DNA of 63,923 bases from Negaprion brevirostris (lineage: Eukaryota). Each line of letters opens with the position of its first letter. Positions within the stretch are counted from its first letter, which is position 1. The stretch covers positions 35,880,626-35,944,548 of the forward strand of contig JARDVH010000150.1 of NCBI GenBank assembly GCA_030324005.1, in the 5' to 3' direction. Below, piece after piece: positions 15,001 to 18,000 of this stretch. The position numbers are program-made.

Positions 15001-18000
15001 CATAAATTAACTAAAGCATTGAACTTTCCTAAAGTATTTGAAGTAATCACTGAGGCTTGTAAGGATCGACATTACATCAGGCAGTCTTGCTTAAAATACA
15101 TAGTAAAATCCAAATGCACTTTCATTGACACTTATTACATACATTCCAAACACACCCTATCCATGTATGTGGGTCATGTTTCTTGTGCAGGAATTGTTTT
15201 AGCAGTTTGTGCTATTATTCTGCCATTTTATCAGCAGCCCTGTTGTTACTGCAGCAACATAACTGATCTTAACTGTGAAAATGTTTGTTTTAAATTGAAC
15301 TAATATGGGGTTATTATTTTAGTGTTTTCGCCTTTTTTTTGTGTGGCTTGAATAGGTTGATTGACAGCAATAGCATGTGACTAGGTGGCACTAGGCTTAC
15401 ACTGAGAAATCAAGTCAGTTGCTATTTTGGAAGCTGCAAAGTAGCCATCTCACTCTCTCTGAAGTCTGAAGACTGGGATCTACCAGAGACTGGGGGCAAA
15501 TTTTACCATCCTGACTTCCGTGGGAATTGGAGTGGGTGAGGGGCTGACCATGGAAAGATCCATTGACTTCATGCAGGATTTTTTGGTTTTGGGGCAAACA
15601 AGGCTGGAAATTCCCAGCAACCTCAAAAAGACTGGTGAGTTTGGTGAGTCCTCAGAAGATACTCTCTGAGGTTGTCTAGTTTGTGGTCTCCAATATGAGG
15701 CTATCTGAAGAAGACTGCTTACTGAATGTGCTTTGACTTTAAAGACAGAGAAAGAAATCACAGTGTCAATGGAACTGTCTGCTAAAAAGACTTCATAAAT
15801 TGGTGCAAGAATAAAGATCCACAAGTTGCGAACTGTCCATAAGAAGTCAAAACAGCAACAAGCATGTCATAGACTGCCAAAATGAGCCATGAATGCTGGA
15901 GCTAGGAATGTCAATGCAAAAATTCTGGCAAAATGGGTCACATTGTAAAAGCTTTTTGGGCTAGACCAGCTGAGAAGAATGTTCAGAAGAAGAATCTGGG
16001 TGCCTTCAAGAAGAATAAGTTGCATTCTACAAAAACAATTGAAACATTGAAGAAGAATTGTGAATGTTGTATCTTTAGTTCCTGAGACCAAATACCAACA
16101 AAAGCTGAAGAATCTTTCTATAAAACCAGCTGACATGATCTTAAGGACATATACAATAGAGGTAGGCAGGATTTTCCAGCTGTGCTCACCCCAAAACTGG
16201 AAAATCCTACCCAAAGACAATGGATCTTTGCATAGTCTTCCTTCCTCTGCTATGATTCCTGTGGTAGGTGGGATGGGAAAACTTCCCCCATTGTGTCATT
16301 TAAAAGTTACATCATGGTCAACATAAAGTTGAGTGGACAAACAGTGGAATTGATTCCATGTGGTCTGTGGTAATTTTCCAGCTCCATTTGGGAGATCATG
16401 ATTGGAGAAGATAAAGGTTAACTGGATTGCTGTCAACAGACTGGCCAATGGGTGGCACAGTGGTTAGCACTGCTACCTCACAGAGCCAGGGACCCAGATT
16501 CAATTCCAGCCTTGGGTGACTATCTTTGTGGAGTTTGCACATTCTCCCCTTGTCTGCGTGGGTTTCTTCCGGGTGCTCAGGTTTCCTCCCACAGTCCAAA
16601 CATTCGTGGGTTATGTTCATTCGCCATGGTAATTTGCCCCTTAATACCAGTGGGATTAGCAGGGTAATACTTGGGATTACAGGCTAAGGCCTGGGTGGGA
16701 CTGTTGTTAGTGCAGGCTTGATGGGGTGAATGGCCTTCTTCTGCACTGTAGAGATTCTATGAATATCAAAACAGATCTACAGGACTTCCTGGATAAATAC
16801 AAGAATGTATTCAAAGAGACACTTGGCTCAATGAAGGGAGTTCAAATGAAACTCAAGACAAAACCTAACAGTCAACCAAAAAGTCTCAAAAGCAAGAGCG
16901 GTGCCATATGCAATTTGTCCAAAGATCAAAGAAGAACATTCCCAAGCAAGTAGCCTGAGCAACCAACATGGCAAAAATTCTAAAGCAATTCTTGACAAAA
17001 CTGAACTTGTTCAGATTCCCTGCTGTAGTGGAGACAATAACCCTTTAAACAGTGAATATTTGATACTTAAAGGAATGCATCAAATGGAATAAAAACCAAT
17101 GTATTTGTGTAATGTTTGTATAAATACAGCTCTAGATTTTGTCCTGAACAGTCCATCTCAAAATAACATTGCAAAGTTCCTACTGTGAGCCCTGGTGTTT
17201 GTTAAGTTTCTCACCCATTACAGGTAGCTGGTTTAGACTGCACTGATATGCCAAAAGCTGAATGGGTGAAGTTGTCACTGCAGAGATGCCAGTTTAACTT
17301 CAACCCAATCTCCTTCAACATTTAAATGAAGTGCGATTAGCTTTAGGGAAATAACTATCAGATAACACAATGCACTTAGAAGTTAGTAAATATGTTTAAC
17401 AATCTTTGTCATTTATTATTTAATAGGTTCTTATGAGATAGTCAGGTAGCTGGCAAGTTATGGCATCAGGCCTTTTCCTCTTGAGCATATCAGTGTTAAA
17501 ACAGTATTAACACGTATGATAAAATTATCTAACATTAAATGAGAAAGTTTGCCAATATATTGTGGGAGGACTTGAGGAGGGTACAATAACATGTGCTATA
17601 TCAATGTATGAATTTTATAAAAGGATATGTATTGAGAGGACCACAAGATAAAAATTATTTTCTTGTCCGATATTTCCCAAGGGAGTCTTTGTTTGCCTGC
17701 TTCTTCTATCCAGGGCTAGAACTTAAGTGGCAGATCACATCTTCAAAACAAGAATTCCGTGTTCCCCTTTCAGAATGATGGTAATAGAGAATCCATCGAT
17801 GGGATGCACCCGGTACATCTACTTGAACCAAAAAAAAATTGCTATCATTTGTTCTGGTGTTGCCATCCAGCGTGACCATGTTTACCACTTTCACAGTGAA
17901 GTCTGAAGGCTGTCGGAGTTTGACACTCCCTATGTAAAAGGGCAGGTTTTTAAAGAAATATGAATGTTTAAAAGTTGTTCCGTGCTCTGCCGACCTCTAA

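What the first reader, a model, noticed from the sequence alone, without database searches (positions are those of the whole stretch)
17772..17929. Hidden inverted V pseudogene from a divergent sigma V family
Seen: a minus-strand segment aligns residue for residue with V1 from the splice acceptor to CDR2 (TVKVVNMVTLDGNT..SN..WFK*.PG..WILYYHHS) at only 21/52 identity, far below the J and C duplicates. It lies 3' of C1 and ~700 nt 5' of J2, facing the opposite way. Established: inverted V segments that join by inversion are known in teleost light-chain clusters and in TCR beta/delta loci, whereas shark clusters are classically co-oriented. Inference: this locus once had a second V family able to rearrange by inversion to J1 or J2, giving combinatorial diversity, or a later local inversion broke the gene.
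Basis: partly seen in the sequence, partly recalled or inferred. Interest (0 to 1): 0.8.

Follow-up and report, generated by a model that had tools for sequence, protein, structure and literature searches.

The report
Dead inverted half V gene relic
A shark antibody light-chain locus holds a real but long-dead, back-to-front fragment of a variable gene in front of a second, equally dead J-C unit; it is an ordinary decay product, not a working gene.

Summary
The minus strand 17929..17772 is the 5' half of an Ig sigma light-chain V exon, from splice acceptor to the start of CDR2. Evidence: tblastn with V1 gives E 2.3e-8; DNA score 49 against a maximum of 31 in 200 shuffles; a sigma-V HMM gives E 8.2e-10, next best 0.61.

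It is dead and incomplete:
- Cys23 is Gly.
- A 2-nt loss and a 2-nt gain bracket a frame in which WYKQ reads WFK-stop.
- FR3, the RSS and the leader could not be found.

It sits where the V of a second cluster belongs, 0.7 kb before J2. That cluster is dead too. The J2 heptamer is altered. C2 has lost its splice acceptor and carries 6-, 8- and 1-nt deletions. The relic, J2 and C2 lie on one gap-free stretch, so the opposite orientation is not a scaffolding effect.

A "divergent V family" is not shown. The relic is an elasmobranch sigma V on a very long branch, slightly nearer the canonical shark sigma V group (25 of 49 codons) than V1 (21 of 49). Grouping it with V1 is not rejected (AU p 0.14).

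Past rearrangement by inversion is possible in topology but has no positive evidence. Interest is low to moderate.

The parts
17772..17931 (-). psiV-sigma: AG acceptor (17931-17930) plus the 5' half of a V exon (FR1, CDR1, FR2, first residues of CDR2). DNA homology to the V1 intron end reaches 17945.
   Evidence: tblastn E 2.3e-8; DNA score 49 against shuffle maximum 31; sigma-V HMM E 8.2e-10 over HMM positions 2-53
17862..17864 (-). Codon at the place of the conserved Cys23, now GGC (Gly)
   Evidence: LDG in the relic aligns with (L/M)DC in V1 and most of the sigma V rows
17814..17838 (-). Frame damage: T-run 2 nt short of V1, then TGG TTC AAG TAG (WFK-stop, 17830-17819) in the shifted frame, then 5 nt where V1 has 3
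18636..18679 (+). J2: heptamer position reads CACACTG where J1 has CACTGTG. The 37-nt coding part begins TAG, keeps FGQGTKLLVA, and is followed by a GTAAGT donor.
20027..20321 (+). psiC2: acceptor AG changed to AA (20027-20028); exon with 6-nt, 8-nt and 1-nt deletions relative to C1
38..386 (+). V1 exon (38-358, open, Cys23/Trp41/YYC present) and its RSS (359-386, CACAATG-12-ACAAAAACT); the leader lies off the window
   Evidence: (Pfam V-set 8.8e-15)
698..773 (+). J1: GATAACTGT - 23 nt - CACTGTG (698-736), coding 737-773, GTAAGT donor
3741..4048 (+). C1 exon, open; 92.7% identical over 109 residues to the Mustelus asterias sigma-type chain P0015
   Evidence: (C1-set 3.5e-18)

Best explanation
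The window holds a tandem array of sigma light-chain mini-clusters from a shark. Its nearest named relative among the hits is Mustelus asterias. Only the first cluster (V1-J1-C1) looks intact. The finding is what remains of the V segment of the second cluster: a 160-nt 5' half of the V exon, inverted relative to J2-C2.

Its defects are loss of Cys23, two frame shifts, an in-frame stop, and no detectable FR3, RSS or leader. It does nothing now. It cannot be spliced into a V domain and cannot be cut by RAG.

Shown: homology, sigma isotype, orientation, the damage, and the death of J2 and C2.

Inferred: the orientation and the truncation arose by a small local rearrangement (inversion plus deletion) during or after the death of cluster 2. 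On this reading it is not a working inversional design. Also inferred: the V relic is older than the event that made J2-C2 resemble J1-C1. That event was either a duplication or gene conversion covering only the part from about 444 / 18354 rightwards.
For: Homology and isotype:
- tblastn E 2.3e-8; DNA score 49 against a shuffle maximum of 31.
- 22 of 43 sigma-type proteins hit the relic at E <= 0.01. The best is the S. torazame protein P0001, 28 of 65 identical, E 1.2e-10.
- phmmer against 1.84 billion representatives gave 3 hits. The only V domain among them is the sigma V P0001 (E 2.9e-4).
- P0017 and P0018 are named sigma light chains by their source.
- A sigma-V HMM gives E 8.2e-10 among 3354 window ORFs, next best 0.61.

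Damage.

Missing 3' half and RSS:
- The V1 3' half scores 17 on the minus strand, below the shuffle mean of 19.2, and 22 on the plus strand.
- No sigma protein or HMM hit to FR3 falls in 17000-18400.
- The RSS scan finds none in 17000-18400.

Dead partner cluster:
- J2 heptamer position reads CACACTG and the coding part starts TAG.
- C2 acceptor AG is AA, and C2 has three deletions, two of them frame-shifting.

Position: the relic lies directly left of the point (18354) where homology to the J1 flank begins.

Gap-free stretch: 14407-25550 holds the relic, J2 and C2.

Age: JC distance is 0.37 for the V pair against 0.17 for the J flank and the C exon.

Literature: shark cluster elements are as a rule co-oriented (PMC5192425, passages read).
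Against: - No breakpoint signature was found. There are no inverted repeats in 16500-19000, and no FR3/RSS piece is left in plus orientation next to J2.
- An inversion alone does not explain the missing 3' half, so a second event (a deletion) must be assumed.
- The V pair being twice as diverged as the J/C pairs means the relic is not simply the twin of V1. Its link to cluster 2 therefore rests on position only.
- No outgroup genome could be examined, so the order of events (death first or inversion first) is not shown.
- My RSS scan also missed the J1 RSS (nonamer 5 of 9). A badly decayed RSS could therefore have been missed as well.
Confidence: 0.6

Rival explanations
1. The V was inverted while still functional. 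Cluster 2 (or cluster 1, from its 3' side) once joined V to J by inversion, as teleost L1/L3 clusters do and as the inverted V genes 3' of the TCR beta and delta C exons do. The relic is the corpse of that arrangement.
For: The topology allows it. With the V on the minus strand left of J2, a V RSS would point the same way as the J RSS, and the same holds for J1 (reasoned from the layout). The relic is older than the J-C similarity, so it was not copied from V1 in that event. Inverted V genes are known elsewhere (PMC5192425, PMC5241823, PMC12227049; passages read).
Against: No RSS, FR3 or leader is left to show that it ever worked in this orientation. Teleost sigma (L2) V genes are reported mostly in the same orientation as J-C, with the opposite cases resting on gapped scaffolds (PMC5241823, passages read). 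Shark clusters are described as co-oriented (PMC5192425). A dead cluster is free to suffer rearrangements.
Confidence: 0.15
2. The fragment never belonged to cluster 2. It is an older orphan V piece, left by an earlier cluster or moved by a segmental or transposon-associated event. A J-C copy came to lie next to it, or was homogenised with J1-C1.
For: Homology between the clusters starts abruptly at about 444 / 18354, about 57 nt past the V1 RSS, and does not include V. V divergence is about twice J/C divergence. The surroundings are rich in mobile-element debris.
Against: The fragment lies just where a cluster V is expected, 0.7 kb before J2. No repeat or element boundary was found at its ends. 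Gene conversion of J-C between neighbouring clusters would give the same divergence pattern without any move.
Confidence: 0.17
3. The orientation is an assembly error, a small local misorientation inside the contig.
For: The assembly has 14 N runs in 64 kb, and three of the 100-N gaps are flanked by near-identical duplicated ends. Its local quality is therefore not perfect.
Against: The relic, J2 and C2 lie on one N-free stretch of 11 kb. A flipped piece of a few hundred bases inside a contig is not a usual assembler error.
Confidence: 0.06
4. Chance resemblance; there is no V gene here.
For: Pfam V-set gives no hit at E up to 10. The two best hits in the 1.84-billion-protein search are unrelated repeat proteins sharing an LDGNT...FLV motif.
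Against: E 2.3e-8 and 1.2e-10 by tblastn, 8.2e-10 by the sigma-V HMM, and 0 of 200 shuffles at the DNA level. The match runs on into the intron's pyrimidine tract and AG. The TGG-TTC-AAG-TAG stretch matches WYKQ in the frame predicted by the indels.
Confidence: 0.01

Closest known systems
Elasmobranch Ig sigma (type IV) light-chain V genes, e.g. nurse shark and horn shark sigma (P0017, P0018, named so by their source) and the predicted chains of Mustelus asterias, Heptranchias perlo and Scyliorhinus torazame
   Same: The best and only V-type relatives. 25 of 49 codons match P0001, P0015, P0016 and P0018, and the FR2/CDR2 motif WILYYHHS is identical in P0018. The codon count between the Cys23 position and PG is the same. 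The exon starts 2 nt before the first full codon, as in V1.
   Different: Cys23 is lost, the frame is broken, there is a stop, and FR3, Cys104 and the RSS are missing. The terminal branch is about eight times the median.
Pseudogene clusters in shark light-chain arrays (a review reports that the fourth nurse shark sigma-2 locus is a pseudogene; PMC5192425, passage read)
   Same: A whole mini-cluster that has died beside working ones.
   Different: Here the isotype is sigma, not sigma-2, and the V relic is inverted and halved. My four searches turned up no paper that reports an inverted V relic in a shark or ray light-chain cluster.
Inverted V segments that join by inversion: teleost L1/L3 (kappa-like) clusters, some zebrafish IgL clusters, and the V following the C exon in TCR beta and delta loci
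   Same: [quoted passage not shown]
   Different: Those V genes are intact and carry RSSs; this one has neither an ORF nor an RSS. Teleost sigma (L2) V genes are reported mainly co-oriented (PMC5241823, abstract and passages read).

Membership tests
Ig sigma light-chain V gene (as homologue or pseudogene) | Significant and specific sequence similarity to sigma V domains | tested here: met
   Sigma-V HMM E 8.2e-10. tblastn gives up to E 1.2e-10, and 22 of 43 sigma-type proteins hit at E <= 0.01. The only V domain among 3 phmmer hits in 1.84e9 representatives is a sigma V. The relic lies inside the elasmobranch sigma clade, 100/99. No kappa, lambda or sigma-2 sequences were put in the tree.
Ig sigma light-chain V gene (as a functional member) | Open V exon with Cys23, Trp41 and the YxC of FR3 | tested here: not met
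   Cys23 is Gly. Trp41 is only in a shifted frame and is followed by a stop. FR3 is not found. Pfam V-set gives no hit.
Ig sigma light-chain V gene (as a functional member) | RSS (heptamer, 12-nt spacer, nonamer, as at V1) directly 3' of the V exon | tested here: not met
   None in 17000-18400 on either strand at the thresholds heptamer CAC + >=5/7 and nonamer >=6/9. The same scan ranks the V1 RSS first but misses the J RSSs, so its sensitivity is limited.
Ig sigma light-chain V gene (as a functional member) | Leader exon and intron 5' of the V exon | tested here: inconclusive
   The pyrimidine tract and AG acceptor are present and align with V1. Twelve sigma leader peptides gave only short matches on both strands of 17930-18400, none convincing. 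The V1 leader lies off the window.
Ig sigma light-chain V gene | Sigma pattern of short CDR1 and long CDR2 (PMC5192425, passage read) | tested here: inconclusive
   The CDR1 region has the sigma length apart from the 2-nt loss. Only the first residues of CDR2 are left.
Inversional V-J configuration (teleost IgL, TCR beta/delta type) | V in opposite orientation to J-C on contiguous sequence | tested here: met
   The relic is on the minus strand and J2 and C2 on the plus strand, with no N between 14407 and 25550.
Inversional V-J configuration (teleost IgL, TCR beta/delta type) | Intact V with an RSS pointing the same way as the J RSS, with 12/23 pairing | tested here: not met
   The relic has no RSS and no ORF. 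The J2 heptamer position is also altered.
Inversional V-J configuration (teleost IgL, TCR beta/delta type) | Rearranged products (coding joints in cDNA, retained signal joints) | not testable with these tools
   No shark transcript or read collection is on hand.

The most novel reading that the evidence does not exclude
The relic records a time when a shark sigma cluster carried a working V in the opposite orientation and joined it to J by inversion. That could have worked within its own cluster or across to the neighbouring J1-C1. It would mean the inversional, inter-cluster-capable design known from teleost light chains already existed in cartilaginous fish, whose clusters are taken to be strictly co-oriented and deletional.
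Probability: 0.12. Interest if true: 0.6.

Novelty: new member of a known kind. Interest (0 to 1): 0.25.

Why it matters
As it stands it matters little. It is one more pseudogene fragment in a decaying antibody-gene array, and useful mainly for correct annotation: one intact sigma cluster followed by at least two dead ones.

It would matter if related sharks turned out to carry an intact V in this inverted position. Shark Ig clusters are the textbook case of co-oriented segments that rearrange only by deletion within a cluster. An inversional cluster would blur the line between the shark and teleost light-chain designs, and would open a route to joining between clusters.

The locus also gives a small, dated example of V and J-C parts of neighbouring clusters having different histories (JC 0.37 against 0.17). 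This bears on how far gene conversion or partial duplication shapes these arrays.

Tried and rejected
- Pfam scan of the 96-aa minus-strand ORF: no V-set hit. The only line is EDR2_C at E 0.07, below its cut-off, taken as chance.
- phmmer of that ORF against 1.84e9 representatives: the two top hits (P0012, P0013) are long repeat proteins with LDGNT...FLVKYD repeats. I judged them unrelated from their sequences.
- Search for FR3 and RSS with V1 DNA, sigma proteins, the HMM and a motif scan, on both strands: nothing above chance.
- Search for a leader exon with 12 sigma leaders: only 4- to 7-residue matches on both strands. One is MLRCF on the minus strand near 18075; another is SLFFVWS on the plus strand at 18107-18127. 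Neither is convincing.
- Inverted or direct repeats that could mark inversion breakpoints in 16500-19000: none of note.
- The idea that the inversion left the 3' half of V in plus orientation before 18354: not found.
- A weak V-like HMM hit at 32795-32926 (+), E 0.61: it overlaps a repeat pair within the window and is taken as chance.
- A weak resemblance of the conserved J-upstream flank (18475-18520, and its J1 twin) to FR2/CDR2: E 2.6, taken as chance.
- Rfam and tRNA scans of the window: nothing.
- Two papers that might describe shark sigma germline organisation (PMC7094790, PMC12010099) are not held. Supplements were not consulted.
- No eukaryotic genome collection was available, so orthologues in other elasmobranchs stayed unchecked.

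Full report
**What the window is**

V1 (exon 38-358) is a Pfam V-set domain (E 8.8e-15) and C1 (3741-4048) a C1-set domain (E 3.5e-18).

V1 alone, searched as a single exon, finds a Scyliorhinus torazame V (69% identity) and teleost light chains. A second search, with the V part of that catshark protein, returns 33 proteins. Among them are chains named by their source as sigma light chains of nurse shark and horn shark (P0017, P0018).

C1 is 92.7% identical over 109 residues to a predicted chain of Mustelus asterias (P0015). The window is therefore a shark sigma (type IV) light-chain locus, not human.

**Layout**

Self-comparison shows two duplicated blocks:
- 444-788 matches 18354-18694 (J and its 5' flank).
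- 3715-4079 matches 20001-20352 (C exon).

Cluster 1 looks intact:
- V1 is open, with the RSS CACAATG-12-ACAAAAACT at 359-386. This is the best RSS-like site in the whole window.
- J1 has CACTGTG at 730-736, coding sequence 737-773 and a GTAAGT donor.
- C1 is open.

**The observation**

tblastn with the V1 translation gives one non-self hit: 17948..17772 on the minus strand, 22 of 59 identical without gaps, E 2.3e-8. The next hit has E 0.83.

At the DNA level V1 24-196 aligns to 17945-17775(-) with score 49. 200 shuffles gave 21.4 +/- 2.5 with a maximum of 31. The match begins in the intron's pyrimidine tract, and an AG lies at 17931-17930. The exon starts at 17929 with 2 nt before the first full codon, as in V1.

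A profile built from 25 sigma V domains finds the minus-strand ORF 17996-17709 with E 8.2e-10 among 3354 ORFs of the window. The next best is 0.61. The match covers profile positions 2-53 only, that is FR1, CDR1, FR2 and the first residues of CDR2.

**State of the fragment**

- The codon at Cys23 is GGC (Gly).
- After the CDR1 codons a T-run leaves the frame 2 nt short.
- In that shifted frame TGG TTC AAG TAG stands where V1 has WYKQ.
- Five bases where V1 has three then restore the original frame for PGASHRWILYYHHS.
- Past 17772 nothing resembles FR3 or an RSS.
  - The V1 3' half scores 17 on the minus strand (shuffle mean 19.2) and 22 on the plus strand.
  - No sigma protein and no profile hit falls there.
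  - The RSS scan finds no site in 17000-18400. That scan also misses the weak J RSSs, so it would not see a decayed one.
- Twelve sigma leader peptides gave no convincing match upstream.
- Pfam V-set does not see the fragment.

It is a dead half exon.

**Which V is it?**

In the search of 1.84 billion representatives only one V domain reached E <= 0.001, the catshark sigma V (P0001, E 2.9e-4). The two better-scoring hits are long repeat proteins that share a short LDGNT...FLV motif, and I take them as spurious.

Of 43 sigma-type proteins, 22 hit the fragment at E <= 0.01 by tblastn.

Codon identity, read piece by piece:
- 25 of 49 to four shark sigma V domains (P0001, P0015, P0016, P0018).
- 23 of 49 to nurse shark sigma.
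- 21 of 49 to V1.

The motif WILYYHHS is identical in horn shark sigma, while V1 has WVLSFYHS.

I built a tree of 26 rows. It holds the fragment, V1 and 24 of the 43 proteins. The other 19 were left out: 17 from teleosts plus the unnamed P0005 and the mixed-label P0040. In this tree:
- V1 forms a supported clade with a second horn shark chain and a basking shark chain (98/95).
- The fragment lies outside that clade but inside elasmobranch sigma (100/99).
- The fragment's terminal branch is 1.49 against a median of 0.19.

Forcing it into the V1 clade costs 0.49 log-likelihood units (AU p 0.14).

So it is a sigma V, perhaps of the canonical group rather than the V1 group. A separate 'divergent family' is not shown; decay alone can account for the low identity. 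Kappa, lambda and sigma-2 sequences were not in the tree.

**The neighbourhood**

The fragment lies directly left of the point where homology to the J1 flank begins (18354), 714 to 716 nt before the J2 coding start. This is where a cluster V belongs, but it points the other way.

Cluster 2 is dead as a whole:
- In the register of J1 the J2 heptamer reads CACACTG. Read from the coding end, the third base of the CAC is changed, and from recalled knowledge the first three bases matter most for cleavage.
- The J2 coding part begins TAG.
- The C2 acceptor AG is AA, and the exon has 6-, 8- and 1-nt deletions. The C profile finds it in three different frames.

The fragment, J2 and C2 lie between the N runs at 14307-14406 and 25551-25650. 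Their mutual orientation therefore does not depend on scaffolding. The orientation of cluster 1 relative to them does, since four N runs lie between.

**Relative age**

| Pair | Identical / aligned | JC distance |
|---|---|---|
| V pair | 103 / 145 | 0.37 |
| J 5' flank | 237 / 279 | 0.17 |
| C exon | 247 / 291 | 0.17 |

The V fragment is thus not the twin of V1 from the event that made J2-C2 resemble J1-C1. Either only the part from about 444 / 18354 rightwards was duplicated or converted, or the V belongs to another, older lineage.

**Explanation**

Most likely this is the V of a decayed second cluster, flipped and cut short by small local rearrangements in DNA that was no longer under selection. 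That order of events is inferred, not shown. No breakpoint repeats were found, and no 3' half was left behind in plus orientation.

- There is no RSS.
- The partner J-C is dead.
- Reviews describe shark clusters as co-oriented and deletional (PMC5192425, passages read).
- Teleost sigma (L2) V genes are reported mainly co-oriented, unlike L1/L3 (PMC5241823, abstract and passages read).
- The inverted V after the C exon of TCR beta and delta is in print (PMC12227049, passage read).

In four full-text searches I saw no paper reporting an inverted V relic in a shark or ray light-chain cluster. For most listed papers I saw only the listing. Two likely sources are not held, and supplements were closed.

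**Verdict**

- It is a new example of a known kind of thing, a V pseudogene in a dead cluster.
- Interest is low to moderate.

The question can be settled by reading the orthologous array in other elasmobranch genomes, which these tools do not hold.

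Noticed in passing
window 28290-28325, 28718-28783, 31470-31565 (+): Pieces of a third sigma C exon, all on the plus strand: acceptor plus AQQLADPSAK, then LCLASKLSMSFTGASWTVTGSP, then LSSYLVVPGTD. They are split by a ~330-nt repeat copy at 28385-28711 and by about 2.7 kb more, which includes an N run. So the array has at least three clusters, two of them dead. No J or V was found for this one.
   Followed up: partly
window 14477-14660, 16451-16762, 26387-26744, 28377-28711, 61539-61860 (+) and 33941-34171 (-): Six copies of one interspersed repeat, 69-82% alike. 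From recall its head looks tRNA-derived, like shark SINEs. ARAGORN and Rfam report nothing.
   Followed up: partly
window 14217-14306 / 14407-14496; 36660-36748 / 36849-36937; 25509-25550 / 25651-25691: Three of the 100-N gaps are flanked by near-identical direct duplicates (93-99%). This looks like overlapping contig ends left unmerged, an assembly artefact rather than biology.
   Followed up: no
window 13488-13691 (+), 16711-17092 (+): ORF fragments that by eye resemble retroelement proteins (reverse-transcriptase tail; gag-pol-like stretch) in the spacer between C1 and the V relic. Not scanned against a family library.
   Followed up: no
window 600-650 (+) and 18475-18603 (+): The J 5' flank is conserved between clusters. 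Its translation (EHWEYMKPD) reappears at the C-terminal end of the catshark protein P0001 (ELWEYRKPE). That gene model seems to have spliced from FR3 into the V-J spacer, a likely annotation error in that record. It also hints that this flank is conserved between species.
   Followed up: no
window 737-773 (+): J1 encodes LGQG where J2 and most sigma chains in the set have FGQG. It is an intact-looking J with Leu in place of the usual Phe of the FGXG motif.
   Followed up: no
window 28000-32000: Strong G-over-C skew (0.24-0.28) across the region that holds the third C remnant; cause not examined.
   Followed up: no
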